From NCBI GenBank assembly GCA_958296015.1, contig CATQIH010000032.1:85795-149794 (forward strand): a DNA stretch of 64,000 nucleotides, written 5' to 3'. The notes beneath the pieces were generated by a model. That model saw only the letters and a list, made by a program, of their open reading frames with translations. It made no database searches and had not been told where the DNA came from. Positions 1,994 through 46,862 of this stretch are shown here, one piece after another. A program made the translations under genes and the position numbers. The DNA comes from Cyclobacteriaceae bacterium (GTDB taxonomy: Bacteria; Bacteroidota; Bacteroidia; Cytophagales; Cyclobacteriaceae). Position 1 is the first letter of the stretch. Each line of letters opens with the position of its first letter.

Positions 1994-2692
1994 TTATCTA
2001 ACCGATCCTACGCAAAGACCTTTTCCTCCCTCGAGTATGCCTTCAACATGAATACTCTGATTTTTTTTCCAGCTTTTTACAATAGCCAATTCGCTGTCCC
2101 GCAGCGCGTCATCTAAATACCAAGTAGCGTACTTCTTATGACAGAAGTCTACAACAAGAGGTAGAGTGTTTTCTCTGGCCATCCAATCGCCTTTAGGCCC
2201 ATCAATCAATACAAAATCTATCAACCCGTATTTTTCTACGATTTCTCTGACACGAGCTAGATCTAATTCATATCCCCGAGGTTGCGTGGCTACTGCCATA
2301 GGAAAATAGTTAACTCCCTCCATATCTAGCCCCTGGCGTGATGCTTCCAGATACTTTGCTTCCTGGTCAACAGAAATGAGAGTGCCATTCTTTACTTTTT
2401 TAAAGTACTGTATGAATAGTCTGGTACTCAAACCACTTCCAAATTCAAATATCACCTTCGGTTTGAGTTCGTTTAACCGTTCCCATAAATAATTTAAAAC
2501 CGGTGCTGATAGAGTAACCTGATAGTTAGGATCTAGTTGAATATTATCTTTTATTTCGTAGTTCAGCAAATTGTTATCGTAACTGCCACTCACATCGTCT
2601 GGCACTAGTATATTAGGCTTATTTCCCCGTAACAAAATACTTGATCGTTGTTTTACTTTCCAGTAAAGCCAGCTTTTTATGTTCATATGCAT
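1994..2692 (-). CDS. class I SAM-dependent methyltransferase
   Basis: VIFEFGSGLST motif I; DFVLIDGP; LDDALR. Confidence 0.8.
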   Translation of the reverse strand: MHMNIKSWLYWKVKQRSSILLRGNKPNILVPDDVSGSYDNNLLNYEIKDNIQLDPNYQVTLSAPVLNYLWERLNELKPKVIFEFGSGLSTRLFIQYFKKVKNGTLISVDQEAKYLEASRQGLDMEGVNYFPMAVATQPRGYELDLARVREIVEKYGLIDFVLIDGPKGDWMARENTLPLVVDFCHKKYATWYLDDALRDSELAIVKSWKKNQSIHVEGILEGGKGLCVGSVR

Positions 2693-2736
2693 AGAAAATG
2701 TTTTTAGTTGAAGCTTCTACTATATACTTTTCAGCG

Positions 2737-3798
2737 TTATATGCTGGCATCAGCACTGAAATTATTGGATTGTGCATATCTATTTATAGAAGATATGTTT
2801 CTGATTTTGTTATATATATGATCATGTTTATAATTTAATATTATTATCTCTTCAATAAAGCCTTTCAATCTTTGTATTTTGCAATAGTAAAGAACCTTAT
2901 TCTTGATAAAAAGATTGTAGTTAAACTTTACTTTTAAATAATCTACAAAAGCATACATTAACTCTCCTTTCCAAATGCTCTTCTTTCTTAAAACTTTTTT
3001 ATTTTTCTCAGCTAAATATTTATAGCAATTAAGTATTGCATTACACTTGCCGATCTGATAATTAAGATCGTACACGTATTCCTTTTCTAATCTAGAAGTA
3101 GGTATAAAGTGATAAAATTTTAATTCTGGGTTAAACCAGATTTTTTTTCCTCTTAATCTTAAAGCAAAGCACAACTCAGTGTCGCCCCCTGAGGATAAAC
3201 TTTCGCCTTCTCTATCACTTAGTAAAGTAGAAAAGCTACTTTTAATAAGAGAGGTGTATTGTGATTTTCTTATTGTCATTCCTGCTCCATAAACTCTGTT
3301 AACTTCACCAGCAAATTTAGCAGGCGCACCAACAGCATATACAGATTTTACACTTTCAAACCACGGATGTATTTGCGTTTCTAAAACAGCCTCTCCCTGC
3401 CCACCTAAAACTCCAATCATCGCATCACTTTCCATCGTTTCAAAAGCAATTCTTACATAGTCCTTATTTAACCAATTATCATCATCACAAAACAAACAGT
3501 ATTCATACTGTGCCGTTTCAAATCCCTTATCACGAGCATAGGATAAACCAGGCTTGGGTTGGTCAACGATGCTAAAGGGGATATCCAGATGATATTGCTG
3601 CCATTCCTTTTTTGCTACCGCTACCGTATCATCCGTAGAAGCATTGTTAACCACAATTACCTCCCAAGGTATATCGCTAGGCACTTGCTGTTGTGCCAGG
3701 TGCCTGAGCGTCTCGGGCAGCCGCTTTGCGCTGTTGTAGCAGCAGACGATGACGGATACGCCGGGGGTGTTGGGAACGGTGGTTGTTTGTTGGATCAT
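2737..3798 (-). CDS. GT2-family glycosyltransferase
   Basis: SVIVCCYNS, VVNNASTD, FCDDD, GGDTELC motifs. Start moved to ATG 3798 because the ORF-track N-terminus translates the palindromic repeat. Confidence 0.9.
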   Translation of the reverse strand: MIQQTTTVPNTPGVSVIVCCYNSAKRLPETLRHLAQQQVPSDIPWEVIVVNNASTDDTVAVAKKEWQQYHLDIPFSIVDQPKPGLSYARDKGFETAQYEYCLFCDDDNWLNKDYVRIAFETMESDAMIGVLGGQGEAVLETQIHPWFESVKSVYAVGAPAKFAGEVNRVYGAGMTIRKSQYTSLIKSSFSTLLSDREGESLSSGGDTELCFALRLRGKKIWFNPELKFYHFIPTSRLEKEYVYDLNYQIGKCNAILNCYKYLAEKNKKVLRKKSIWKGELMYAFVDYLKVKFNYNLFIKNKVLYYCKIQRLKGFIEEIIILNYKHDHIYNKIRNISSINRYAQSNNFSADASI

Positions 3799-3818
3799 GG
3801 GTGTTTTTTTGTCGCTAT

Positions 3819-3891
3819 TCCTCCCCCTGGCCCCCTCCAAAGGGGGATATAGCGCGTAACTATCCCCCTTGGAAGGGGGCTAGGGGGATGA
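3819..3891. repeat. 73 bp nested palindrome, left copy of the DUF559-flanking inverted repeat
   Basis: Arms CCCCCTGGCCCCCTCCAAAGGGGGATA and TATCCCCCTTGGAAGGGGGCTAGGGGG are near reverse complements; each arm also contains CCCCCT..AGGGGG. Confidence 0.9.
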
Positions 3892-3904
3892 GCGAATTTT
3901 TATC

Positions 3905-4309
3905 TTATTTGTTCATTTGTTTTTTATTGTACATCTCTATATATGCTTCTATGGTGCGTATGACGTTGTTTATGTCATTGAGCACTTCATCATCATGAAA
4001 CCTAATCACTTGAAAGCCTATCTGCTCTAAGGCTTCATCTCTTAGACAGTCTTTTTTATAGACTTCTTCATCCTGGTGCGTGATGCCATCCACTTCTATG
4101 ACCAGCATCAGGTCTTTGCACATAAAATCCACAATATAATTTAGCAATGCCCGCTGGCGGTGGAAGGTATAACCTTCCATGCTTCCATTACGCAATACGT
4201 ACTTCCACAGACAAGCTTCGGCTTTGGTCATGTCCTGGCGCAAACTGCTGGCCAGGGGTTTTAACTTTTTGTTGTAATGCCAGTTGTTGTGTGGACCTGC
4301 TTTTTCCAT
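3905..4309 (-). CDS. DUF559 domain endonuclease (Vsr-like)
   Basis: LRQDMTKAEACLW, YIVDFMC, LVIEVDGITH, RDEAL..GFQVIRF are characteristic of DUF559. Confidence 0.9.
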   Translation of the reverse strand: MEKAGPHNNWHYNKKLKPLASSLRQDMTKAEACLWKYVLRNGSMEGYTFHRQRALLNYIVDFMCKDLMLVIEVDGITHQDEEVYKKDCLRDEALEQIGFQVIRFHDDEVLNDINNVIRTIEAYIEMYNKKQMNK

Positions 4310-4390
4310 GTCTGGTTTTGGGCATTTGTGTTTTGTTGGAAGATTTTTTATCTGCTGTTGTCGCTTATCATCCCCCCCAACCCCCTTTGA

Positions 4391-5808
4391 CTAGTGTTTA
4401 TACATATCTTTGTCAGGAGCTAAAAGCCAACCTGCCAGCATACTTTCAAAACGTTTTAAGCCTCTGGTGAAGGTAATCACGCCAGGTGGTCTTTGGCTTT
4501 GATAGCCTTTCCACCCCCCTAACCTGGCAATAATCCAGGAGGCCCAGGCTAAGTCACTTTCCTGATAAGGATTCTTGTGTTTAGCTGTTTGACCTTCCAG
4601 ACCAACTAAGAGCACTTTTAGAAAGGCTTGTTGTACTACACTAAAGCCTACGGCTATGGGCTGTGTACTTGTGGCTGACCTGGCTTGTCTAAGTTGCATG
4701 ACCAGCAGCGCACTTTTCATAGCAATCACGCCTAACTTTCTCAGGCTGTAGCCTTGCTCTAACTCTGAGGCTTCCAAGTTGAAGCCCTCTGATTTGAGCA
4801 GACGGAAATAGTCCTCTATGATCCATCGCAGGCTATACCAATGCACCATCTGCAAAGCTTGCTCAAAACAACTAACCGGATGGGTAGTGAGCAGATTCCA
4901 CTCCACAGGCTTTTCTTTGCCTGCACTCTGAGGAGTTTCTTTACCCTGTACCAAATATAAGGTTACATTTTTAGGATAGACCTTGGCATGGGGGTTGTTG
5001 TCCGGGCGCAGCAGTTTTACTTGCACAAAGCGTACTTGCATCTCAACGTTGCGCTGCTTTCGCTTACCAGGTAAACCCGGCAACAGAAAACTATACCCTC
5101 CACAGGCTGGCTGCTGGTCAGCATAGTCATAGAGCTTATGCTTTTCTCCTTGCATGGTCTCTATCAGACGGTTCACCCGGCTGCGGATAAGCAAGTGAGT
5201 GCGCTCATCGGGCACCCTGACAAAACTGTCATATATATCCCCTTCCCGATCCTGCACGAAAGTAACCTCACGGGCCTGCTGTAAACAAGGTTGGCTCGCC
5301 TGGCAAGCTTTTATCCAGCGATAAGTCTCTTTTTTTTCTATGGGTAGCGGTGCTGTTGGCTTCTCTTGCCCTGCTGCCCGTATCCACAACTGCACATCGC
5401 TCAAGCCTAATACGCTGCCTTGCTGAGCATCTATGACCAGGCTGCAATGAGCAAAGTAGCCTATATCTTGGTTGTTGCCTACCAAACCCAAGCCACTCTC
5501 AGCTTGGATCAAGCCTTGATGAGAAGCATAGTTGATCTCTGTGCTATCTTGCAGCACCAGCACATCTTTGCCTGCCACCTGACCCCTGCATTGGCTCTGT
5601 GCCTGCTCTATCAAAGCACCTTCTCTCACTTTATCATTACCCAAATAACGATAAAAACTCATCAACTCTGACCAGTTATCACTGAGCCTGTTGATGACTA
5701 TGGTTTGTTTTTCGGCTATCTTATGCTCCAATTGAACCCCCTTTTTTCCAGCCGCTTGTCTCCATGAAGGCTGGTGGTTTTTCTTCCTGATGTCTTTGTC
5801 TCTATCAT
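4391..5808 (-). CDS. IS50-like DDE transposase, needs a -1 frameshift near 5736-5746
   Basis: QDSTE, DREGD, YSLRWIIEDYFRLLKS and IARLGGW...RPPG motifs in ORF 4391-5731. An upstream frame from ATG 5808 encodes GDKRLEKRG and joins at an A6G5 run. Confidence 0.85.
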
Positions 5809-5890
5809 CTTCTGCTTGTTTATGTCTTTCCTTTCTTTATCTTAACACCAACACTACTTTATTCCTCTCAGACTTATGTATAAACACTAG
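4391..5890 (-). mobile_element. IS4-family (IS50/Tn5-like) insertion sequence, 1500 bp
   Basis: Perfect 16 bp terminal IR CTAGTGTTTATACATA. The right end CTAGTGTTTATACATAAGT resembles the IS50 outside end CTGACTCTTATACACAAGT. The transposase stop lies inside the left IR. Confidence 0.93.
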
Positions 5891-6004
5891 CCTTCAAAGG
5901 GGGACAGACACGCGCTATATCCCCCTCTGGAGGGGGGTAGGGGGAGGACTATCTTCTCCCCGAAGCACTAATCTCTATTTTTAATCCAACTGTCAAATAT
6001 GTTA

Positions 6005-6742
6005 TCAAAACAGCTTACTTGCCTTTTTACCAATTGCTTTACCTAATGTTTTTAGAGAAAGATCAACGCCTACTGCACCGGTCTGCCAGTCATTGACCTG
6101 CTGCCTAAGCTTTTCAATACTTTGCCAAAATTTAGGATGAATTAAATTATCACCTTTGAATATTGGAAAGTCTGGCTTCACATTCTCATGGCAAACCAAA
6201 AACATGTTCTGTCTATACCAAATGTCTACTCTTTCATTATTCCATACCGCAGGACGGATTATATCGTAATATTCATAACCGTATCGCCTAAACTTCTCCT
6301 GCCAGTAAGCCGGCCATTGTTCATTCAGGTGATTTTGTCCGCCTTGTCCAGGTATGGCTGCTGAAAAAAGAATGGTCTTACTATGTTTGGTTAATGATGC
6401 CACAAAAACATCAGCAGCACTTTCCGGCAAATGCTCGGCTACTTCTAATGATACAGCCAGATCAAATATTCTGCCAAGGTTCAAGGGTTTTGTCAGGTCA
6501 TGGGCTACGAATCTTTCTTCTGCTATTTGTAGCATAGAGCGATCAACATAATTACCATCGACACCTGTAAAATCTGATATACCCATATCGTTAAATACTT
6601 TTAGCCAGGTACCTGTGCCGCAACCTACGTCTAAAATAGATTGGGGCTGAACATACTCAAACAGAATAGGCAATACTATTTCTGCTGCACGGGTGTTGTG
6701 CACATCTTCACTATGCACGTACAATGGATTCGCAGTTTTCAA
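6005..6742 (-). CDS. class I SAM-dependent methyltransferase
   Basis: ILDVGCGTG motif I; SLEVAEHL; AAIPGQGG.NHLNEQW. Confidence 0.9.
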   Translation of the reverse strand: MKTANPLYVHSEDVHNTRAAEIVLPILFEYVQPQSILDVGCGTGTWLKVFNDMGISDFTGVDGNYVDRSMLQIAEERFVAHDLTKPLNLGRIFDLAVSLEVAEHLPESAADVFVASLTKHSKTILFSAAIPGQGGQNHLNEQWPAYWQEKFRRYGYEYYDIIRPAVWNNERVDIWYRQNMFLVCHENVKPDFPIFKGDNLIHPKFWQSIEKLRQQVNDWQTGAVGVDLSLKTLGKAIGKKASKLF

Positions 6743-8006
6743 GCGTAAAAGAAATTTGAGGTTGATAAACTTTATTTAATGTAGGATTGACAAACACGCC
6801 ACTTTGAAAAACATCAGATGCTTTTAAATCCAGATAAAAAGCATCATTGATTGTGTCGAAGTTATCTTCGTTATCGCCAAAATACAGGTCTACTCCACAT
6901 TGTCCACTCCCATACATTGATACATTAGGAATGGAAACTGATATAACTCCTTCTTCCTGATCAGTGTATAACTTCTCAGAGGTATGACGGTTATTTATTC
7001 CAATAAAAGGCTCATCGTATGGTGATCTAATCACGATACCTAATATAGGATTGACAAGTGTATCTTCAAGTTTAAAGTAAAATTTTATACGCAAATCGTC
7101 TCCCGGAGCAAGTATGGTAGAAGGCTTGTCATTGACAAACACTTCAGCTTTTTGTAGACCAAAAGCTCTTCTATACTTTTTATTCTGGTGATTGCTTAAG
7201 TCAACCACATGAGAAAGATCTCCGTTTGCTTTACCAGCATTTAAATAACGGTTGATAGCTTCCGGGGCTTCTCCGTCAAAATATGTTTGTCCTGAGTGAA
7301 AAATAACTCCTCTGGTACACAATGACTCTACTGCCCCCATGTTATGACTCACAAACAACACCGTCCTACCTCCTCGCTGCGTCACATCTTCCATCTTGCC
7401 TAGGCACTTTTTCTGAAACTCGGCATCGCCTACGGCCAGTACTTCGTCGATGATCAATATCTCTGGTTCCAGGTGGGCGGCTACGGCAAAGGCCAGGCGT
7501 ACTTTCATGCCGCTGCTGTAGTGTTTCACTGGCGTATCTATGAACTTTTCTACGCCGGAGAAATCTATGATCTCATCAAACTTGGCTTTTACTTCGGTGC
7601 GGCGCATGCCCAGGATCGTGCCGTTGAGGTAGACGTTTTCTCTGCCAGTCAACTCTTCGTGGAAGCCAGTGCCTACTTCCAGCAGAGAGGATACACGGCC
7701 AAAGATCTCAAACCGGCCTTTGGTAGGCTCGGTGATGCGTGACAGAATTTTGAGCAGCGTACTTTTACCAGCCCCGTTGCGTCCGATAATGCCTACGGCT
7801 TCCCCTTGTTTGATCTCAAAGTTTACATCTTTCAGTGCCCAGAAGTCTTTTGGGTCTTGGGGATTGGGTTTTGGGGATTGGGTTTTGGGGCGAAAGAAAT
7901 GAGTTAGGCTTTCCCGGAAATCCCCGCTTTTCTGGCCGCCGTATCCCCGTTGGCCTAAGCTGTAGCGTTTACCCAAATTTTCTACTTTGATGGCAATGTC
8001 GGTCAT
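6711..8006 (-). CDS. wzt: polysaccharide ABC exporter ATP-binding subunit with Wzt C-terminal domain
   Basis: GRNGAGKST Walker A, YSSGMKVRLAF signature, IIDEVLAVGD Walker B, C-terminal extension. Confidence 0.93.
   Translation of the reverse strand: MTDIAIKVENLGKRYSLGQRGYGGQKSGDFRESLTHFFRPKTQSPKPNPQDPKDFWALKDVNFEIKQGEAVGIIGRNGAGKSTLLKILSRITEPTKGRFEIFGRVSSLLEVGTGFHEELTGRENVYLNGTILGMRRTEVKAKFDEIIDFSGVEKFIDTPVKHYSSGMKVRLAFAVAAHLEPEILIIDEVLAVGDAEFQKKCLGKMEDVTQRGGRTVLFVSHNMGAVESLCTRGVIFHSGQTYFDGEAPEAINRYLNAGKANGDLSHVVDLSNHQNKKYRRAFGLQKAEVFVNDKPSTILAPGDDLRIKFYFKLEDTLVNPILGIVIRSPYDEPFIGINNRHTSEKLYTDQEEGVISVSIPNVSMYGSGQCGVDLYFGDNEDNFDTINDAFYLDLKASDVFQSGVFVNPTLNKVYQPQISFTLENCESIVRA
7851..7890. repeat. 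G-rich 15 bp tandem repeat within the wzt N-terminal linker
   Basis: TGGGTCTTGGGGATTGGGTTTTGGGGATTGGGTTTTGGGG, encoding PKTQSPKPNPQDP. Confidence 0.8.
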
Positions 8007-39995: not shown

Positions 39996-40002
39996 GACAG
40001 CG

Positions 40003-40353
40003 TTATTTTTCTTTATGCTCTTTGTAATTGTTCGTAATAATTCGGTTGGTGGAGCCTACCAGACTCTGCCAGGTTTCATCTAACTGTTCCAGGAATTGCT
40101 TTCCTATATCAGTCAGCGTATAGTATTTTCTGGGTGGCCCTGATAAAGACTCTACCCAATGGTAATCTACCAGTCCGGCCTTTCTCAATCGGGTAAGCAA
40201 AGGGTACAGGGTGCCTTCTACCACCATGATCTTTGCCGAGGTAAGCTCTTCTATCATATCCGATGCATATACCTCTCCCCGCGAGATGATATGCAGGATG
40301 CAGTATTCCAGAATTCCTTTCCGCATCTGCACCTGGGTGTTCTCTATCTTCAT
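40003..40353 (-). CDS. PadR-family transcriptional regulator
   Basis: QMRKGILEYCIL, EGTLYPLLTRL, GPPRKYY. Confidence 0.95.
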   Translation of the reverse strand: MKIENTQVQMRKGILEYCILHIISRGEVYASDMIEELTSAKIMVVEGTLYPLLTRLRKAGLVDYHWVESLSGPPRKYYTLTDIGKQFLEQLDETWQSLVGSTNRIITNNYKEHKEK

Positions 40354-40475
40354 GTATCCACATTTTAAAACTGATTGAATGTAAATGTATCACTTAGTAC
40401 TATGTTATACAAGGTATTAGGCTAAAAAGTTACACCGAATAGATAATTTTTTTCAATAAAGGCATAAAAACAGGA

Positions 40476-40509
40476 AAACCAGCCTTATTTTGCATATAAG
40501 CTGGCTTTT
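40476..40509 (-). terminator. hairpin terminator after the rhomboid gene
   Basis: AAAACCAGCCTTAT...ATAAGCTGGCTTTT imperfect stem. Confidence 0.5.
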
Positions 40510-40535
40510 GGGTACTTGGAAATTTTTGACCTGAG

Positions 40536-41162
40536 CTAAAATAACCTGAAGCTGGCTATTTCTTCTATAAAGTGTGGAACAACACCAGGATATACCAAAA
40601 TGGTAAACAAAACCCCAAACAGCGCCCCATACAAGTGTGCGTCGTGGTTGATGCGGTTGCCACTGCCTTTGCTACTCTGATATGAGTAGATCAGGAACAG
40701 TACTCCCAGAATAAAGCCGGGAACAGGCAAAATAGCAAACAGATATATATCATTGGTAGGGGCAAACAAGATGGCACTGAAGATAACAGCAGATACACCT
40801 CCCGAAGCACCCAGCGAGTTGTACCCTGGGTCATGCCGGTGTTTGATATAAGTCTTTACACCGGACAGCACAATGGCCAGCAGATACATCACCACATACA
40901 ACACCAGCCCTACCGTACCATACAGGTAGCCAAAAGTTTGCTCTATGATCGGGCCAAAGAAGTACAGCGTAAACATATTGAAAAACAGGTGCATATAATC
41001 CTGGTGGATAAATCCGGACGTCAGAAAGCGGAAGTATTCTTTGTCCGTATAAATTTTATAAGGATTAAACATCCACTTTTGCAGCACCTCCGGTTTGTTC
41101 CATGCATAAAGGCTGGCAGCCACGGTGACGATGATCAGCACAAGTGTAATAGATAAATTCAT
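40536..41162 (-). CDS. rhomboid intramembrane serine protease
   Basis: HLFFNM, GASG catalytic Ser, HDAHLYG. Confidence 0.93.
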   Translation of the reverse strand: MNLSITLVLIIVTVAASLYAWNKPEVLQKWMFNPYKIYTDKEYFRFLTSGFIHQDYMHLFFNMFTLYFFGPIIEQTFGYLYGTVGLVLYVVMYLLAIVLSGVKTYIKHRHDPGYNSLGASGGVSAVIFSAILFAPTNDIYLFAILPVPGFILGVLFLIYSYQSSKGSGNRINHDAHLYGALFGVLFTILVYPGVVPHFIEEIASFRLF

Positions 41163-41219
41163 AGGTTGAGTTTTGAAAAAGGGTTAAATAATGCACAACG
41201 TTTGCCCGCAGGTACAGAG

Positions 41220-42194
41220 CTATTTCTCCCTGTTAATCAGTTTTTCCATAAAATGTTTGATAGCATTGATCTGAGTTTCCTCAACAGGCAATTGCCTCAG
41301 GCAGGTAAAACCAGCTGTAAAGTACTCATCCATTTTGGCTTCGGTCTGGGCGCGGATATCAAGCTGATCATAAATTGCTTTAACAGCGTTCACTTTCTCT
41401 TGTTTATCAAAGTCCCGCACATTCAACCAGTGCATCAATGCTTCTTTTTGTGCGCCCCTGGCCACTTCCATCGCTTTGATGAGCAAAAAAGTCTTTTTGT
41501 TGGCAATGATATCTCCTCCTACCTGCTTGCCAAATTTGCTTTGTTCTGCATACACATCCAGCAGATCGTCCTTTAGCTGAAAGCCAATCCCTACATTTTC
41601 TCCTACTTCATACAGTTTCTGGCAGGTTTCTGGTGCAGCATCTGCCAGCATACCGCCCAGTTGCAAACTAAAACCCAGTACTACGGCAGTCTTCAGACGT
41701 ATCATCGCCAGGTATTCGCTTTCGGTTACCTGGGGGGTCGTCTCAAAAATCATATCAAATTGTTGCCCTTCACACACTTCTGCCGCGCACTTGTTGAAAG
41801 CCTCCAGCACGGGACGCAGTTTTTCGCTGGGCACATCCAGCAGCAGGTCATAGGCCCGCACCATCATCACATCGCCCGAAAGGATGGCTATGTTTTCATT
41901 CCATTTGTAATGCACACTCGGTTTGCCTCTCCGCAGCGGAGCCTTGTCCATGATATCATCGTGCATCAGGGTGAAGTTGTGAAAAACTTCCACTGCCAGC
42001 GCAGGGTTCAAAGCTTTGCTGACATCCTGCTCACCTTTAAATAGCGCATACGACATCAGTGTGAGCATGGGCCGCAGGCGTTTGCCACCCAAAGACAAGA
42101 TATAACGGATAGGTTCGTATAGCTCAGGGGGATGTTGTCCGAAATCGGTGCGTTGCAAAGCGTCATTAATCAACGCTGTATAATCTTGCTTCAT
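41220..42194 (-). CDS. polyprenyl diphosphate synthase
   Basis: GGKRLRP, HDDIMD, KTA, FQLKDDLLD; start set to ATG 42194. Confidence 0.93.
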   Translation of the reverse strand: MKQDYTALINDALQRTDFGQHPPELYEPIRYILSLGGKRLRPMLTLMSYALFKGEQDVSKALNPALAVEVFHNFTLMHDDIMDKAPLRRGKPSVHYKWNENIAILSGDVMMVRAYDLLLDVPSEKLRPVLEAFNKCAAEVCEGQQFDMIFETTPQVTESEYLAMIRLKTAVVLGFSLQLGGMLADAAPETCQKLYEVGENVGIGFQLKDDLLDVYAEQSKFGKQVGGDIIANKKTFLLIKAMEVARGAQKEALMHWLNVRDFDKQEKVNAVKAIYDQLDIRAQTEAKMDEYFTAGFTCLRQLPVEETQINAIKHFMEKLINREK

Positions 42195-42444
42195 GTATGT
42201 GTAGATACGAAGAGCCATAAAGGCTTGTTATGGTTCCTGCTAAATTAAGCCTCGATTTCACAGCATTAAAGCGTTTCCAGGTAAATAATCGCCGGTATAT
42301 CCAAAAGCTGTCCTAATGAACATGATCTGCCATCAAAGGAATTACACTAAGTGAAAATGGCTATAGCCGTTTTCTGGTTTTTGCCAATCAATGTATTGCA
42401 TTGGCATGGATGGTTGAAGTTACAGACTAAGTGACATGCATAGA

Positions 42445-42551
42445 GGCATTGAAAATTGCTCTACAAGATCAAGAACGTGCTCAATGCCCAGCATGGAATG
42501 CCCAGCATGGAATGCCCAGCATGGAATGCCGGGCATAGATATGCACTCAGA
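42445..42551. repeat. family D repeat copy 1, with a 14 bp tandem (AATGCCCAGCATGG x3)
   Basis: Direct repeat of 43213-43291 and 43415-43469. Confidence 0.85.
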
Positions 42552-42577
42552 CGAGGTACAGTATTAGCTGCATATAA

Positions 42578-42919
42578 TCATTGTTCCTTTATCTGTTCAA
42601 TCAATTCTGTAAGCTCCTTATCAGTGATCGTACTAATATCAGATTTGTCATATATGCTTAACAAGATGAGGTTAATCTGTTCAGAAAGATTTTCAATTAC
42701 ATAAGTTATCACTCTTCCGCCTCCGCTTTTACCTTTCCCTTTGCTCTTGATCGCAATCCTTATTTTGTAGCAACCCCTTCCCAAAGCGGTTCCGCACTTT
42801 GGGTTATCCTGTAATTCCTTGTATAGGCTGCGTAAATCAGTGGCGAGTGAAGGATACTTTTTCGCTAACTTTTTTAATTCTTTTTCAAATCGATGGGTAG
42901 CAGTAATTTTACAACTCAT
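42578..42919 (-). CDS. RelE/HigB-like type II toxin
   Basis: FEKELKKLAKKYPSL...GTALGRGCYKIRIAIKSKGKGKSGGGRVI...LLSIYDKSD. Confidence 0.88.
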   Translation of the reverse strand: MSCKITATHRFEKELKKLAKKYPSLATDLRSLYKELQDNPKCGTALGRGCYKIRIAIKSKGKGKSGGGRVITYVIENLSEQINLILLSIYDKSDISTITDKELTELIEQIKEQ

Positions 42920-43127
42920 CGATTATTTGATCCAATGTTTTCAGTTGTATCTTACCCTTTTTGCAATCCTCTACCTCTTGAAATGCTTCCTGCAAATCTG
43001 ATTTTACTTTCAGAAGCTGCCTTAATTTTTGATTTTCTTTTGTTAAGCGTTTCCAGTCCTCATAGGGTATTTGTACTGCTGTTCGCTTTCCTTTTTTGTC
43101 GGTCAAGTACCTTATATCACTTTCCAT
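42909..43127 (-). CDS. putative antitoxin
   Basis: 72 aa, YLTDKKGKRTAVQIPYEDW, overlaps the toxin start by 11 nt. Confidence 0.78.
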   Translation of the reverse strand: MESDIRYLTDKKGKRTAVQIPYEDWKRLTKENQKLRQLLKVKSDLQEAFQEVEDCKKGKIQLKTLDQIIDEL

Positions 43128-43212
43128 ATCTTTTTTACTTTGAAGATATTTATTTGTTCTAATCTTTCCTAATTCTCTACTTGATTGAAACCAGTATTTA
43201 ATGTAGCGGGAA

Positions 43213-43469
43213 CATTATAAATGCCCTCTAAGATAAAGAACGTGCTCAACGCCCAGCATGGAATGCCGGGCATGGATATGCTCTCAAGCAGATTCTATAT
43301 TAATTTGACTAGGCTAGGTCGCATATTCATGCGACCTTATCTTTTTAGGCATTTTTAATGCCCCGTATGGAATGCCTCCATGCCGGGCATCTCCCACAGT
43401 GGATACTGCATGCAGGGCATTATAAATGCCCTGTAAGATCAAGAACGCATAAATATGCGCTCAAGCAGG
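43213..43469. repeat. family D repeat copies 2 and 3 plus intervening hairpins
   Basis: CATTATAAATGCCCT.TAAGAT.AAGAACG twice; perfect 9 bp stem AGGTCGCAT/ATGCGACCT at 43316-43337. Confidence 0.8.
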
Positions 43470-43499
43470 TTTTGCTAAAATACTTGTTATGTGCAGTCT

Positions 43500-44393
43500 T
43501 TATTTTTTGTCATTGCCAATATATTGCCCTTCACTTACAGTCCTAATCATTTCTGATGAAAAGTCATTATATAGAAGTATTGGTTTAGCTATGTTTTCGG
43601 TAATGCTGACTACTTTGTTGATGTTAAAGTTAGCAATCCATAAAATTCGTTTTTTAACTTTAGCTCTTAATTTTTTGTCACGAATGTTGGATTTCAGTAC
43701 TTTCCATAATGATTGGTATTTTACCAAAAGATTGAACAAATATATGAATGGTAACAACGTTAAACTCAAAACCATTGGTAGAATAAAGGTTTTTAATGTT
43801 TGAATTGAAAGGAAGTTTTCGTGTTGTTTTATTGTCAGATACAAAGAGCAACAAAACACAAATAATGAGAAATATGCAATAAAATATTCCATAAGCTTTT
43901 TTACGGCCTGATGTTTAATATTTCTTTCCGCTAGAACTTGGATTCTTCCTGCCATTGTCATAATTGGAAGGATAATCAATTCAATCCAAAGATTGAATGA
44001 AATAAAGTTTATAATAAATTCTACGATGATAGTCCACTTTAATGTGTCCAAAACAAAGTTTTTAAAATAGTTTATGTCATTTGCTTTGTTAACATTTATT
44101 AATGTTATAAATCCAAGTCCCACAAACCAAAATATTGTATCTTTAAGCAAGGAAAAATCCCACAAGTTTAACTTGTAAAGTAGAAAAACAAAGAAAGCAG
44201 TATTCAGAGTAAGAGCTAAAATTGGAAAAAGTATTTCCTTAGCAAATATTTCCTTAGCAAATAATAGTGTAATTTCTTCCCAAAGTGATTGTCTGATTCC
44301 TTTATTAAATAAAATGACAATCAAAAGGAGAGTTAGCCAAATTAATAATGCCTTTTCTCGGTTTGATATACTTTTTAAAATTTCACTTATCAC
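43500..44393 (-). CDS. hypothetical multi-pass membrane protein, AT-rich
   Basis: 297 aa with about seven hydrophobic segments; visibly lower GC than core genes. Confidence 0.7.
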   Translation of the reverse strand: MISEILKSISNREKALLIWLTLLLIVILFNKGIRQSLWEEITLLFAKEIFAKEILFPILALTLNTAFFVFLLYKLNLWDFSLLKDTIFWFVGLGFITLINVNKANDINYFKNFVLDTLKWTIIVEFIINFISFNLWIELIILPIMTMAGRIQVLAERNIKHQAVKKLMEYFIAYFSLFVFCCSLYLTIKQHENFLSIQTLKTFILPMVLSLTLLPFIYLFNLLVKYQSLWKVLKSNIRDKKLRAKVKKRILWIANFNINKVVSITENIAKPILLYNDFSSEMIRTVSEGQYIGNDKK

Positions 44394-44677
44394 GTTGAGG
44401 GAAGTTTTGCTTTAATGAGAGTTTAGTTAAGGTTATACAAATATCCTTATAAAACCCATTTCATTCATACAATTCTCCAATATAAAGCATCCTCTCCAAT
44501 CCTTTATATATATTAGGCTATATTATTTTTACGTAAACATAAAATGCCGCTTTTTCCTGTAAGTCTTACTTTGGCTTATTTATTACATCTGTAAGGTCTT
44601 GATCGTATTCCAATTTGCTTTATAAACACCATCCTGCACTTTTGGGGAAAAGGATGTTTTACCAAATATCATCAGTC

Positions 44678-45169
44678 ATGAAAAATACCAATAATGTAGT
44701 CTCTATCCAGGCACCTGATAAAGACCTGAAAAGTGCACTCACTAAGTTGCAGGAGGCGCAGGCGATCCTGGCTCCTTACCTGATTGCCCTGACGGCAGAG
44801 GAGCGGAAGACGCTGCCCAAAATGAGCGATAAAACGATTCCTTTTGTAGAAAAAGCGATAGATTATATAGAAAGTAAGCCAGCGCTAAAGCCTGCTTATA
44901 TAGATGTGGAAGAGATGCGCATAGATTTTCAGGCTGCGCAAAAACTAACAAAGGTATTACGTATGGCACAACAGATTTGCAGCAGACTTGATGATACAAT
45001 CATGCTGTCGGGTAGTGAGGCGTATGTGGCTGCCTTGTCTTATTACCATGCTATCAAAGGAGCTTCCAGGGTAAATGTGCCTGATGCTAAACCAGTGTAC
45101 GAAGACCTCAAAAAACGATTCGTCACTACGAGCCGCCGCTCCGATAGCACGATAGATGAAAAGGAATAA
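44678..45169 (+). CDS. hypothetical all-alpha protein
   Basis: LTAEERKTLPKM, LDDTIMLSGSEAYVAALSYY; start set to ATG 44678. Confidence 0.75.
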   Translation: MKNTNNVVSIQAPDKDLKSALTKLQEAQAILAPYLIALTAEERKTLPKMSDKTIPFVEKAIDYIESKPALKPAYIDVEEMRIDFQAAQKLTKVLRMAQQICSRLDDTIMLSGSEAYVAALSYYHAIKGASRVNVPDAKPVYEDLKKRFVTTSRRSDSTIDEKE

Positions 45170-45246
45170 AATCAGGAAGCAACGATAGCATAACAACGCC
45201 CATACATCACCAGAGCTTCTGGTAAACGCATGTACAGACATGTTGT

Positions 45247-45290
45247 AGCTGGCAAGTATAGATATATATCTGTATTTGCCAGCTTTTTTT
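45247..45290 (+). terminator. long-stem rho-independent terminator
   Basis: AGCTGGCAA...TTGCCAGCT stem followed by a T run. Confidence 0.7.
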
Positions 45291-45321
45291 ATGGCTGCTT
45301 ATCTAATGAGGGTATTGCGAC

Positions 45322-45366
45322 AAATACAAACAGCGCAGGGCTTGAAGCCCTGCGCTGTTTGTATTT
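45322..45366. repeat. perfect palindrome, 22 bp arms with a 1 nt loop
   Basis: AAATACAAACAGCGCAGGGCTT-G-AAGCCCTGCGCTGTTTGTATTT. Confidence 0.92.
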
Positions 45367-45477
45367 TACTCCTTATGTACACGTTAACTGCCGACGCGCT
45401 GCGTCATAGTGCTTCGGTAACAAAAACATTTGAAGGCTACTTTAAAGACAAGGTAAGGACTTAAAAAGAAGCAAAGG

Positions 45478-45675
45478 CTCAAAAAAGACGCGAAATCCTG
45501 TATTTGAGGTACCCACCCCCACTTCAAAGACAAGATTTCCTCAAAAAAGACGCGAAATCCTATCATTGAAGTACCCACCCCCACTTCAAAGAGAGGACTT
45601 CCTCAAAAAAGATACAAAATCCTGCCTTTGAAGTACCCACCCCCACTCAAAAGAGGGGATTTCCTCGAAAAAGAC
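45478..45675. repeat. 62 bp tandem repeat x3 (plus partial), each unit an imperfect hairpin
   Basis: Units start at 45478, 45540, 45602 and 45664; invariant loop ACCCACCCCC between ~18 bp arms. Confidence 0.9.
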
Positions 45676-45827
45676 TCCCTAAGCCTGTATTTTATCCCTC
45701 CACTTGAGATAGGAGTGTATAAGCTGGCATATAGCAGTAACAGGGTTATTTAACCTGTTAAAAGGAAACCTGAGTATTGATGCCTGACCGAATCTCTGAA
45801 GAATAATCTTTTAAATATCTTTGCTGC

Positions 45828-46862
45828 ATGAATGATGTGCAACAAGCTTTTTTGCCGGCAGAATGGTTTCCACAGAGTGGCGTACAACTTACCTGGCCCC
45901 ACCAGCAAACAGACTGGTACCCTACCCTGGAAAAAGTGCTGCCCTGTTATGTAGCCATAGCCAAAGAAATAGCAGCACGGCAGCACCTGCTGATCGTCTG
46001 CCACAATGCAGAAGAAGCGCGGCAACAGCTCAAAGGCTGCCAGCTCAGACATGTTACCTTTTGCCAGCTGCCTGCCAACGATACCTGGGCCAGAGATCAT
46101 GGTGGCATCACTTTGATAGAAAACAACCGACCGGTGCTGCTGGATTTTAAGTTCAATGGCTGGGGGCTTAAGTTTCCGGCCAACCACGATAATCTGATCA
46201 CCCAAAGGCTCTACCGGCAGTCTGTTTTTCAAGATAATATCGTTTTCCGCAGTCATCAGCAGTTTGTGCTGGAAGGCGGCGGTATTGAGTCGGATGGGGA
46301 AGGTACGCTGCTCACTACCACCGAATGCCTGCTGTCGCCCAACAGGAACGGACACTTGTCGCAGGCGGAGATTGAGCAATACCTGATCAATACTTTTCAT
46401 CTGAAACGGGTACTCTGGATCAACCACGGCTATCTGGAAGGCGATGATACCGACAGCCATATTGATACACTGGCACGCTTTTGTGATCCGCACACCATTG
46501 CTTATGTGCAATGCACCGATACTGCCGACCCGCACTACGAAGCCCTGGCAGCCATGCAAGCAGAACTTCGGCAACTGACCACTTTGCAGGGAAAACCCTA
46601 CCGCCTGCTTCCACTGCCGATGGCCGATGAAACCCTGGATGAAGAAGGCAACCGGCTACCCGCTACTTATGCCAATTTTCTGATTATCAACGGAGCCGTA
46701 TTGCTTCCGTTCTATGGTTCGCCCAAAGATCAGCAGGCAAAAGAAGTGCTGCAAACGGCCTTTCCAGACCGTGAAATTATCGGTATTCCCTGTGAACCTT
46801 TAATTCAGCAGCACGGTTCTTTGCATTGCATTACCATGCAATATCCGCTGGGTGTATTATAA
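45828..46862 (+). CDS. agmatine deiminase / peptidylarginine deiminase family
   Basis: PAEW, DTWARD, LEGG, GDDTDSHID, GSLHC. Confidence 0.93.
   Translation: MNDVQQAFLPAEWFPQSGVQLTWPHQQTDWYPTLEKVLPCYVAIAKEIAARQHLLIVCHNAEEARQQLKGCQLRHVTFCQLPANDTWARDHGGITLIENNRPVLLDFKFNGWGLKFPANHDNLITQRLYRQSVFQDNIVFRSHQQFVLEGGGIESDGEGTLLTTTECLLSPNRNGHLSQAEIEQYLINTFHLKRVLWINHGYLEGDDTDSHIDTLARFCDPHTIAYVQCTDTADPHYEALAAMQAELRQLTTLQGKPYRLLPLPMADETLDEEGNRLPATYANFLIINGAVLLPFYGSPKDQQAKEVLQTAFPDREIIGIPCEPLIQQHGSLHCITMQYPLGVL

What the first reader, a model, noticed from the sequence alone, without database searches (positions are those of the whole stretch)
42445..43469. TA cassette flanked by direct repeats that exist in 'filled' and 'empty' forms (family D)
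Seen: three direct copies of GGCATT..AAAT(T)GC.CT..AAGAT.AAGAACG[insert]CAT..ATATGC.CTCA. Copy 2 holds one TGCTCAA.GCCCAGCATGGAATGCCGGG hairpin, copy 1 holds it with the 14-mer expanded to three units, and copy 3 has no insert. The antitoxin-toxin pair lies between copies 1 and 2, and an AT-rich membrane gene follows copy 3. The ATGCCC/GGGCAT stem recurs throughout. Inference: a small cassette array in which structured repeats act as recombination or insertion sites, integron-like in layout but with no integrase or attC consensus.
Basis: partly seen in the sequence, partly recalled or inferred. Interest (0 to 1): 0.68.

Follow-up and report, generated by a model that had tools for sequence, protein, structure and literature searches.

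The report
REP-type hairpin repeats flanking toxin-antitoxin genes
The three repeats around this toxin-antitoxin gene pair belong to a genome-wide family of about 50 small hairpin repeats of a known kind (REP elements, with a matching transposase gene in a relative); what is unusual is that they cluster around toxin-antitoxin genes and other imported genes.

Summary
Three direct copies lie at 42445-42552, 43207-43290 and 43413-43469. A RelE/RelB-type toxin-antitoxin (TA) pair sits between copies 1 and 2.

The repeats are not local. A covariance model finds 50 units in this 5.9-Mb genome, 51 units at 36 sites with copy 1. Each ~57-nt unit has hairpin H2, a T-rich linker and hairpin H1 (GGGCATT-N3-AATGCCC). 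"Filled" and "empty" forms differ in copy number of a 14-nt tandem unit that lengthens H2.

Units usually lie just after stop codons in gene-sense orientation, show compensatory stem changes, and carry G·U pairs mostly on one strand. The family is patchy among relatives. In one same-family genome a REP-associated tyrosine transposase (RAYT) gene is flanked by these units. This genome has no cognate RAYT, no integron integrase and no attC features.

The cassette-like layout is real. Sites cluster, border low-GC DNA, and 6 of 12 RelE/ParE toxin genes lie within 400 nt of a unit.

Verdict: a new member of a known kind, with an unexplained TA association.

The parts
41220..42218 (-). Polyprenyl synthetase gene, the core gene bordering the array on the left
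   Evidence: Pfam PF00348 at 251.6 bits. Conserved in 28 of 31 relatives. The same-genus genome G001 has neither the TA pair nor the units beside it.
42445..42552 (-). Copy 1: a REP-type unit in long ('filled') form. Hairpin H1 is degenerate and hairpin H2 is expanded by a 14-nt tandem array. It starts 26 nt after the toxin stop codon, in gene-sense orientation.
   Evidence: Partial covariance-model hit at 42442-42496(-), 22.5 bits. The minus strand folds at -45.3 kcal/mol (z -3.2) against -38.9 (z -2.4) for the plus strand.
42483..42530 (.). 14-nt tandem array (AATGCCCAGCATGG, 3.4 perfect copies) inside copy 1
   Evidence: TRF. The same 14-mer forms arrays of 2-6 copies at other units in the genome, for example C37:31122-31208, C46:94067-94153 and C20:434071-434115.
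42578..42919 (-). RelE/ParE-superfamily toxin gene (113 aa)
   Evidence: Pfam RelE PF06296 at 28.3 bits, cut-off 27. It has 5207 homologues at E<=1e-10, many named RelE/ParE toxin by their sources.
42909..43127 (-). Putative antitoxin gene (72 aa). It lies upstream of the toxin and overlaps it by 11 nt.
   Evidence: RelB-like PF18506 at 23.6 bits and Phd/YefM at 19.7 bits, both below cut-off. TIGR01552 at 17.7 bits. The assignment rests mainly on the operon layout.
43207..43293 (-). Copy 2: a REP-type unit in intermediate form, with two extra 14-nt units
   Evidence: Covariance-model hit of 34.4-34.6 bits. The minus strand folds at -30.4 (z -2.4) against -22.0 (z -0.4) for the plus strand. A terminator-like site lies at 43254-43238(-).
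43309..43365 (+). With copy 3 it forms a head-to-head doublet.
   Evidence: Covariance-model hit of 66.7 bits. A terminator-like hairpin plus T-run lies at 43316-43337(+). A copy identical over 57 nt occurs at C11:66069 and C32:44189.
43413..43470 (-). Copy 3: a canonical short ('empty') unit, 29 nt after the stop codon of the 297-aa ORF, in gene-sense orientation
   Evidence: Covariance-model hit of 78.2 bits, E 9e-19. It folds at -27.1 kcal/mol, z -4.4. A terminator-like site lies at 43462-43443(-).
43500..44393 (-). AT-rich 297-aa hydrophobic ORF of unknown family: the next low-GC module of the array
   Evidence: ORF. GC is 0.27-0.32. No hit in Pfam, NCBIfam or PADLOC.

Best explanation
The three repeats are members of a dispersed REP/BIME-type family of small extragenic hairpin repeats. 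They are not a locus-specific cassette site.

Anatomy. On the strand of the gene upstream, a unit reads as follows:
- a conserved GCT(T/A)G;
- an 8-bp hairpin H2 (GAGCGCAT-N4-ATGCGTTC);
- a T-rich linker (TTCATCTTACA, or TTATCTTTTT in the sister subfamily);
- a 7-bp hairpin H1 (GGGCATT-N3-AATGCCC).
Units occur alone or as doublets and triplets of alternating orientation, as in BIMEs.

Shown:
- The genome holds about 51 units at 36 sites.
- The stems covary, and G·U pairs fall mostly on one strand.
- Units usually lie 6-70 nt after a stop codon in gene-sense orientation.
- In a same-family genome, a REP-associated tyrosine transposase (RAYT, an HUH/Y1 enzyme) gene is flanked by these units.
- In this genome no RAYT gene lies near any unit. 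The RAYT homologues I inspected carry other REP families, so the units look orphaned.

Inferred:
- The family spread by RAYT-type single-strand hairpin cleavage and joining.
- The 'filled', intermediate and 'empty' forms arose by slippage or unequal exchange of a 14-nt unit that is itself a GCAT..ATGC mini-palindrome. This lengthens hairpin H2 without touching the T-rich tail.
- On the transcript the units act as terminator-like or 3'-end hairpins, one after each transcription unit: the membrane ORF, then the TA operon.

The TA pair is one of many low-GC imported modules punctuated by units. Why units concentrate there is not explained. Portable homology for module exchange, as proposed for Neisseria NIME arrays, is the leading idea, and it overlaps with rival 1.
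For: Family size and build: BLAST, nhmmer and covariance-model searches.

Stem evidence:
- 93.4% of cells are paired.
- 33 double-change cells against 13.2±3.6 in shuffles, reached by 0 of 500 shuffles.
- G·U on the gene-sense strand 54 against A·C 14.
- The sense strand folds better in 26 of 36 units.

Position and orientation: where a stop codon lies within 30 nt, the unit is gene-sense in 10 cases against 1.

Terminator-like features: hairpin plus T-run sites fall on three of the four units in the window, 5 found against 1.2±1.0 in shuffles. The long forms fold as one extended hairpin in place of H2 on the same strand.

RAYT link:
- L198 ORF 2413-3006 matches NCBIfam NF047646 at 113.4 bits, cut-off 80.
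- It matches Pfam Y1_Tnp at 29.8 bits.
- Units lie at 2128-2187(+) and 2391-2451(+) on one side, and at 3025-3080(+), 3060-3118(-) and 3189-3247(-) on the other.

Other fits to REP biology:
- Patchy distribution: none in the two same-genus genomes, 12 in G008, 8 in G604, 16 in G605.
- No target-site duplications.
- An IS110-family transposase sits between two units in G605, and REPs are known IS110-family targets (PMC1525189).
- The sense strand is the G-rich strand in 28 units against 11, which fits action on the lagging-strand template.
Against: - No RAYT gene lies within 1 kb of any unit in this genome, which is 95% complete.
- Units are longer (57 nt, two hairpins) and fewer (about 50) than classical REPs.
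- The strong link with TA and low-GC modules is not a described REP property and is not explained by a terminator role. Six of 12 RelE/ParE toxin genes lie within 400 nt of a unit against 0.08 expected. Eighteen of 36 sites have a neighbour site within 5 kb against 2 expected.
- Termination is inferred from sequence only. The strand bias is confounded with gene and replication direction.
- Copies are related by descent, so counts overstate independent events.
- Gene calls were crude ORF calls.
- The G008 units score only 24-40 bits with a model built from this genome.
Confidence: 0.65

Rival explanations
1. Cassette-exchange site. The units are the sequences through which TA and other small modules are inserted, swapped or lost. 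This could happen by homologous recombination between units on incoming and resident DNA (as proposed for Neisseria NIME/dRS3 arrays and minimal mobile elements). It could also happen by a trans-acting recombinase or HUH enzyme that treats two direct units as the ends of a mobilisable segment. This does not exclude the REP identity.
For: - Arrays of co-oriented, unrelated low-GC modules are each followed by a unit at six or more loci.
- Sites cluster, and 23 of 36 border lowest-decile-GC DNA.
- Six of 12 RelE/ParE toxin genes lie within 400 nt of a unit, P about 1e-10.
- A ParE module with a unit 129 nt after its stop codon also occurs in G008.
- The low-GC side is usually upstream of the unit, as with an integron ORF and its attC.
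- Two genes are truncated exactly at a unit: an MNT paralogue and an integrase fragment.
- There is precedent for TA operons flanked by duplicated palindromes with a single-copy empty site in a relative (PMC13617665), and for the NIME hypothesis (PMC1797815).
Against: - No event was observed. The only other assembly of this organism has identical arrays.
- There is no integrase or recombinase consistently beside the arrays.
- A 70%-identical TA homologue in another organism carries no unit.
- About a third of the sites lie in ordinary core contexts.
- Half of the RelE/ParE toxins, and another TA pair noted in this window, have no unit.
- No recently duplicated cassette bounded by units was found at a second locus.
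Confidence: 0.22
2. Purely selfish repeat with no role. The units are decaying copies of a REPIN or MITE-like parasite. They survive where insertions do least harm, namely downstream of genes and in dispensable imported DNA. The TA link is a by-product of that tolerance or of an AT-rich target preference.
For: - Patchy distribution and an orphaned state in this genome.
- Many degenerate or partial copies.
- The genome holds several other REP families with their own RAYTs, so it tolerates such elements.
Against: - Compensatory stem changes and one-strand G·U bias point to maintained structure, although RAYT recognition alone could maintain it.
- The precise spacing after stop codons and the gene-sense orientation.
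- Tolerance alone predicts a far weaker enrichment at TA genes than the roughly 70-fold seen.
Confidence: 0.1
3. Atypical integron cassette array (a CALIN): the units are divergent attC sites used by an integron integrase.
For: The layout resembles sedentary chromosomal integrons. It has a homogeneous, lineage-specific structured repeat after heterogeneous ORFs, TA cassettes and a strand-specific fold.
Against: - No integron integrase. The TIGR02249 best hit is below cut-off, and no hit covers model positions about 191-229.
- The units have two separate small hairpins, not one long imperfect palindrome.
- There are no RYYYAAC/GTTRRRY cores (read).
- Units are scattered over 36 sites.
- A RAYT, not an IntI, is flanked by the family in G008.
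Confidence: 0.02

Closest known systems
REP/BIME elements and REPINs with their RAYT transposases (E. coli, Pseudomonas, Stenotrophomonas; PMC2817692, PMC5581495)
   Same: - Extragenic palindromic units, mostly after gene 3' ends.
- Mosaic doublets and triplets of alternating orientation.
- Lineage-specific and patchy distribution.
- No target-site duplications.
- Targets of IS110-family insertion sequences.
- A RAYT gene flanked by the units, seen in G008.
   Different: - The unit is longer (57 nt) and has two different hairpins joined by a conserved T-rich linker.
- Only about 50 copies.
- An internal 14-nt tandem array.
- No cognate RAYT in this genome.
- Strong clustering at toxin-antitoxin and low-GC modules.
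Neisserial intergenic mosaic elements (dRS3 + RS arrays) and minimal mobile elements (PMC1797815)
   Same: - Short palindromic repeats (dRS3 is ATTCCC-N8-GGGAAT; here GGGCATT-N3-AATGCCC) arranged in arrays next to variable genes.
- Small strain-specific gene clusters between conserved genes.
- A proposed role as recombination substrates.
- An IS110/Piv-type enzyme integrates into dRS3. Here an IS110-family gene sits between two units in G605.
   Different: - No sequence relationship.
- No evidence here of natural transformation or of alternative gene contents at the same site.
- These units have a RAYT partner in a relative.
Integron attC sites, including the Vibrio VCR repeats first described as REP-like, and CALINs
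   Same: - A structured repeat follows each module in a co-oriented array.
- TA cassettes.
- The repeat is homogeneous while the ORFs are heterogeneous.
- The fold is strand-specific.
   Different: - No IntI.
- No R''/L''/L'/R' architecture or conserved core sites.
- Many scattered short arrays and single units.
- The partner enzyme in a relative is an HUH transposase.
Pneumococcal BOX elements (boxA-boxB(n)-boxC), from my own knowledge
   Same: A modular intergenic repeat whose middle module varies in copy number and changes the length of the predicted hairpin.
   Different: The variable module is 14 nt rather than 45 nt. There is no sequence relationship, and the phylum is different.
ParE/RelE operon flanked by duplicated res-like palindromes in Photorhabdus (PMC13617665)
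   Same: A TA operon lies between two near-identical palindromic sequences. In that case a relative has a single copy and no TA.
   Different: There the palindrome resembles a Tn3-family res site and the empty site was observed. Here the repeat is a genome-wide REP-type family and no empty site is available.

Membership tests
REP/BIME (REPIN-RAYT) elements | Short palindromic units, extragenic and repeated across the genome | tested here: met
   50 covariance-model hits, 51 units at 36 sites with copy 1. In the arrays examined, units lie between or downstream of ORFs. The two hairpins fold with z of -4.4.
REP/BIME (REPIN-RAYT) elements | Mosaic clusters with units in alternating orientation | tested here: met
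   Ten doublets or triplets, both head-to-head and tail-to-tail, for example C9:58253-58408 (+ - +) and window 43309-43470.
REP/BIME (REPIN-RAYT) elements | A RAYT (REP-associated tyrosine transposase) gene flanked by the family's own units | tested here: inconclusive
   Met in the same-family genome G008: NF047646 at 113.4 bits, with units on both sides. Not met in this genome: no RAYT homologue lies within 1 kb of a unit, and those inspected carry other REP families. The assembly is 95% complete.
REP/BIME (REPIN-RAYT) elements | Conserved short motif beside the hairpin that serves as the cleavage site (GTAG in E. coli) | tested here: inconclusive
   An invariant GC within GCT(T/A)G lies 5' of hairpin H2 in all 29 aligned units. 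Cleavage was not tested.
Integron cassette array / attC | Integron integrase (IntI with its extra domain) in the genome | tested here: not met
   The best TIGR02249 hits are 134.2 and 92.6 bits on one ORF, against a cut-off of 265. No hit covers model positions about 191-229.
Integron cassette array / attC | One imperfect palindrome with R''/L''-L'/R' and RYYYAAC...GTTRRRY cores | tested here: not met
   Units have two separate hairpins and ends of GCTTGAG... and ...AATGCCC, with no such cores (read).
Integron cassette array / attC | Site at the 3' end of each ORF, in co-oriented arrays | tested here: met
   Arrays at C2, C18, C34 and in the window. This feature is shared with REPs, so it does not discriminate.
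MITE (DDE-transposase type) | Terminal inverted repeats plus target-site duplication | tested here: not met
   Doublets have inverted units, but none of the ten examined has flanking direct duplications.
Intrinsic (Rho-independent) terminator | G+C-rich stem followed by a T/U run, placed after a stop codon on the coding strand | tested here: met
   The consensus scan hits three of the four units in the window. Placement is 6-70 nt after stop codons, and gene-sense 10 against 1 at distances up to 30 nt. Function is not testable with these tools.
Neisseria-type NIME / minimal mobile element | Alternative gene contents at the same repeat-flanked site in different strains | not testable with these tools
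   No second strain was found. An exact-protein look-up finds only the same strain. The nearest metagenome relatives are 62% identical and carry no units.
Type II toxin-antitoxin (RelE/ParE with RelB/Phd-like antitoxin) | Small toxin of the RelE/ParE fold preceded by a small overlapping antitoxin gene | tested here: met
   The toxin hits PF06296 at 28.3 bits, above the cut-off of 27. The genes overlap by 11 nt. The antitoxin hits are below cut-off, so its family is unsure.

The most novel reading that the evidence does not exclude
Pairs of directly oriented units act like the left and right hairpin ends of an IS200/IS605-type element. A RAYT-type HUH enzyme supplied in trans (or unit-to-unit recombination) then excises and re-inserts whatever lies between them. 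Under this reading, TA pairs and other small defence-type modules are moved as repeat-bounded cassettes in these Bacteroidota. This would be an integron-like gene-shuffling system built on REPs instead of attC and IntI.
Probability: 0.13. Interest if true: 0.78.

Novelty: new member of a known kind. Interest (0 to 1): 0.4.

Why it matters
As a repeat family it is ordinary: REP/BIME-type elements with RAYT partners are well known. Two points still have value.

First, it adds a two-hairpin REP family from a poorly sampled Bacteroidota lineage. The family has an internal 14-nt tandem array, a cognate RAYT in one relative, and orphaned copies in this genome. That makes it a usable case for studying how REP populations persist after RAYT loss.

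Second, the statistical tie between these units and toxin-antitoxin or other imported low-GC modules is strong, and I could not find it described for REPs. Half of the RelE/ParE toxin genes lie within 400 nt of a unit. If the units turn out to mediate module exchange, that would link REP biology to the assembly of TA and defence islands. It would also offer a testable parallel to integron cassettes and to Neisseria NIME arrays.

Tried and rejected
- **Chance or a local duplication.** Rejected by shuffles and by genome-wide copies.
- **Known RNA family.** Rfam at E<=1 over 40000-46000 gives nothing on the repeats.
- **Integron.** No IntI and no attC cores.
- **RAYT in this genome.**
  - Fifteen Y1 hits were examined.
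  - Five are identical 545-bp IS200-like units with other end hairpins.
  - Three of the four other Y1/RAYT loci inspected are flanked by other REP families.
- **PD-(D/E)XK 'transposase' as partner.** Only one of about six copies is next to a unit.
- **IS110 as partner in this genome.** None of nine hits lies near a strong unit.
- **Target-site duplications.** None.
- **Strain comparison.**
  - Same-genus genomes are only about 70% identical, and G001 shows no synteny beyond the core gene.
  - An exact look-up of the core protein found nothing.
  - The toxin and a MazF from another array are found only on contigs of one metagenome. The first of these is the same strain, with 1 SNP in 1.4 kb, and both show the same gene order.
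  - Look-ups for P0002, P0003 and a ParE returned nothing.
- **Collection scans.**
  - The genome contigs pattern scan gave mostly chance hits; the Ferruginibacter hits lie inside a conserved coding sequence. It did yield two real carriers, L033 and L043.
  - The metagenome pattern scan found nothing.
  - Eighty metagenome loci of the orthologous gene hold no unit.
- **A recombination footprint in copies 1 and 2.** Each has one degenerate H1 arm, on opposite sides. I considered this as a hybrid attL/attR pattern and set it aside as equally explained by decay.
Full report
**1. The observation**

The sequence shows three direct copies at 42445-42552, 43207-43290 and 43413-43469. They share a left part, (G)GGCATT-N3-AATGCCC followed by TGTAAGATCAAGAACG, and a right part, CATrrATATGCGCTCAAGC. 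Copy 3 joins the two parts directly. Copy 2 has 28 extra bases between them. Copy 1 has the same insert with a perfect 14-nt tandem array (period 14, 3.4 copies, 100% matches).

Short cores of the repeat occur far more often in the window than in dinucleotide shuffles: 4 against 0.44 and 5 against 0.26, with no shuffle reaching the observed count.

Between copies 1 and 2 lie a 113-aa toxin and a 72-aa upstream ORF that overlaps it by 11 nt. The toxin passes the Pfam RelE threshold (28.3 bits against 27). The upstream ORF has weak RelB/Phd-like hits. After copy 3 comes a 297-aa hydrophobic ORF with 27-32% GC and no known family.

A unit of a sister subfamily lies inverted at 43309-43365, and with copy 3 it forms a head-to-head doublet.

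**2. The repeats are a genome-wide family**

The window is C32:85795-149794 of a 5.9-Mb, 45% GC, 66-contig assembly. BLAST, nhmmer and a covariance model built from 29 units find 50 units, or 51 at 36 sites with copy 1.

On the strand of the gene upstream, a unit reads:
- GCT(T/A)G;
- hairpin H2 (GAGCGCAT-N4-ATGCGTTC);
- a T-rich linker;
- hairpin H1 (GGGCATT-N3-AATGCCC).

A second subfamily has GGTCGCAT..ATGCGACC and the linker TTATCTTTTT. The H2 differences between the subfamilies are compensatory.

Units stand alone, or as doublets and triplets of alternating orientation, both head-to-head and tail-to-tail, without target-site duplications.

**3. What 'filled' and 'empty' mean**

The 14-mer (CATGGAATGCCCAG and its variants) is not confined to the inside of H2. 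In other copies, arrays of 2-6 units sit just outside H1, for example at C37:31122-31208, C46:94067-94153 and C20:434071-434115. Some copies carry a single extra 14-nt unit inside H2, at C32:43088 and C11:66136.

The normal H2 half, CATGGATATGCGCT, is itself a diverged copy of the 14-mer. The 14-nt register therefore runs 1, 3 and 5 units in copies 3, 2 and 1.

On the gene-sense strand the long forms fold as one extended hairpin in place of H2, still followed by the same T-rich tail. Energies are -30.4 and -45.3 kcal/mol, against -22.0 and -38.9 on the other strand. I therefore read the three forms as tandem-repeat length variants, not as an occupied and an empty insertion site. The mechanism, slippage or unequal exchange, is inferred.

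**4. Structure, strand and position**

I aligned 49 distinct units from four genomes to the model.
- 93.4% of pair cells are standard pairs.
- Four of the eight H2 pairs show changes on both sides.
- There are 33 double-change cells against 13.2±3.6 in shuffles, reached by 0 of 500 shuffles.
- G·U pairs on the gene-sense strand outnumber the A·C cells that would be G·U on the other strand, 54 against 14.
- The sense strand folds better in 26 of 36 units.

With crude ORF calls, a stop codon within 30 nt of a unit faces it in gene-sense orientation 10 times and antisense once. Within 150 nt the ratio is 18 to 9, and several of the antisense cases rest on doubtful ORFs.

A consensus scan finds hairpin-plus-T-run sites on three of the four units in the window: 5 sites against 1.2±1.0 in shuffles.

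The sense strand is also the G-rich strand, 28 units against 11. The strand bias therefore fits a single-stranded-DNA substrate on the lagging-strand template as well as it fits an RNA terminator. These readings are confounded and I cannot separate them. Copies are related by descent, so all these counts overstate independent events.

**5. What kind of element it is**

No Rfam family matches.

There is no integron integrase. The best TIGR02249 hit is below cut-off, and no hit covers the middle of the model (positions about 191-229). The units have none of the attC architecture.

The family is patchy among relatives.
- A strict pattern finds it in 1 of 200 other same-family genomes.
- The covariance model finds none in the two same-genus genomes, whose core gene is about 70% identical.
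- It finds 12 diverged copies in the same-family genome G008.
- It finds 8 copies in G604, a MAG whose record is titled Cytophagales, and 16 in G605, a MAG titled Cyclobacteriaceae.
- Their orthologous core proteins are 66% and 57% identical to this genome's.

The decisive result is in G008. An ORF at L198:2413-3006 matches NCBIfam NF047646, REP-associated tyrosine transposase, at 113.4 bits against a cut-off of 80. It also matches Pfam Y1_Tnp. Units of this family flank it: two upstream in one orientation, and a doublet plus one more downstream. That is the signature of a REP family and its RAYT.

This genome has RAYT homologues that are 45-48% identical to the G008 protein, but none lies near a unit of this family, and those inspected carry other REP families. 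The units here therefore look orphaned, or their RAYT lies in the unassembled 5%.

In G605 an IS110-family transposase gene sits between two direct units. This fits the known targeting of REPs by that IS family (PMC1525189, PMC11208160).

**6. The cassette-like layout is real and unexplained**

Units cluster.
- Eighteen of 36 sites have another site within 5 kb. The random mean is 2.0 and the maximum is 10 in 2000 trials.
- Twenty-three of 36 sites have a flank in the lowest GC decile.
- The flanks are lower in GC than the genome (Mann-Whitney P = 2e-9).

At six other loci the units separate or bracket low-GC modules next to core genes of about 50% GC:
- C2: 117.7-120.7 kb
- C9: 58.2-62.7 kb
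- C18: 73.4-74.9 kb
- C32: 42.8-44.3 kb
- C34: 139.1-142.5 kb
- C37: 27.0-31.2 kb

The modules are PIN, DUF433, three ParE pairs, MNT/HEPN/HepT pairs, MazF, a HigA-like antidote, GIY-YIG, a PD-(D/E)XK protein and others, mostly co-oriented with a unit after each.

Counting from the gene side, 6 of 12 RelE/ParE-superfamily toxin genes lie within 400 nt of a unit. Without the index case the figure is 5 of 11. The expectation is 0.08, and P is about 1e-10. A ParE pair with a unit 129 nt after its stop codon is also seen in G008.

Two genes end exactly at a unit:
- an MNT paralogue whose 3' end is replaced;
- a tyrosine-integrase fragment that has lost its N-terminal part.

Against an active cassette system:
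- No event was observed.
- No recombinase is consistently nearby.
- A 70%-identical TA homologue elsewhere has no unit.
- A third of the sites lie in ordinary contexts.
- Half of the toxins have no unit, and neither does another TA pair noted earlier in this window.

**7. What could not be done**

The test that matters is whether different strains carry different modules between the same units, or whether reads show deletion or circle joints. It could not be run.
- The only other assembly of this organism, contigs of ERZ26692472, is the same strain. The window locus differs by 1 SNP in 1.4 kb, and both loci compared show the same gene order.
- The nearest metagenome relatives are 62% identical and hold no unit.
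- The pattern scan of metagenomes found nothing.

**8. Verdict**

The finding is a real and correctly described repeat structure. Its identity is a REP/BIME-type family with a RAYT partner in a relative, so it is a new member of a known kind.

The integron-like reading fails the membership tests for integrons. Its core intuition, that the repeats bound exchangeable modules, remains open at roughly one in five. The closest precedents for that idea are the Neisseria NIME/dRS3 arrays with minimal mobile elements (PMC1797815) and the Photorhabdus ParE/RelE operon flanked by duplicated palindromes (PMC13617665).

The most novel reading not excluded is that pairs of direct units serve as surrogate IS200/IS605-type ends, so that a RAYT moves the genes between them.

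Noticed in passing
G000 C2:104562-104636, C11:64735-64800 and C11:65560-65640 (outside the window): A different palindromic repeat family (CTGGAGCGCGTTTGTAACGCGTTACAAACGCGCTCCAG, 54 BLAST hits) surrounds a 545-bp IS200-like unit. That unit is present in five copies (four identical, one 99.6%). The repeats also abut a decayed RAYT gene at C11:64314-64723.
   Followed up: partly
G000 C7:232950-233501 and C20:362344-362907: Two intact RAYT-like genes, 48% and 45% identical to the G008 RAYT. Each is flanked by its own REP family (CTAGCGCGCGTTTGCAACGCGTGCT and GGATTCAGTCACAGACTGAATCC). The genome therefore holds several separate REP-RAYT systems.
   Followed up: partly
G000 C9:129800-130200: The catalytic C-terminal third of a tyrosine recombinase (…HTLRHSFATHLL…YTHV) begins exactly at the linker of a truncated unit. 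Judged by eye, it closely resembles the C-terminus of a 564-aa integrase at C42:35825-36631. The junction shares GTGCTCAA with the long-form units. On the other side a DUF433 gene tail abuts an inverted unit.
   Followed up: partly
G000 C34:139401-139694 versus C34:141022-141315: Two 94%-identical copies of a nucleotidyltransferase (MNT antitoxin-type) gene lie in one array. Homology of the second copy stops at the edge of a unit (140980-141025), which replaces the gene's last codons.
   Followed up: partly
L111 (G605:C34) 2590-4158: An IS110-family transposase gene (342 aa) lies between two direct units. The units share about 40 further similar bases on one side, as if two insertions had hit the same position of two units.
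   Followed up: partly
L043 (G605:C75) 2500-7530: In the MAG titled Cyclobacteriaceae, units accompany a run of co-oriented small unrelated genes: flavodoxin-like reductase, lumazine-binding, cupin, GNAT, methyltransferase and SH3. This gene mix resembles integron cassette content. A second 60-nt repeat lies upstream of two of the genes.
   Followed up: partly
window 42353-42374: A perfect 9-bp-stem palindrome, GAAAATGGCTATAGCCGTTTTC, followed by TGGTTTTTGC. It is terminator-like on the + strand. It lies between the start of the polyprenyl synthetase gene and copy 1 and is unrelated to the repeat family.
   Followed up: no
window 43500-44393 and 44615-45169: A 297-aa AT-rich hydrophobic ORF and a 184-aa ORF. 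Neither hits anything in Pfam, NCBIfam or PADLOC.
   Followed up: partly
L079 and L097 (ena:ERZ26692472 contigs): A metagenome assembly holds this same strain. The window locus differs by 1 SNP in 1.4 kb, and several long genes are split, as expected from low-coverage long reads. Its runs would be the place to look for excision joints.
   Followed up: no
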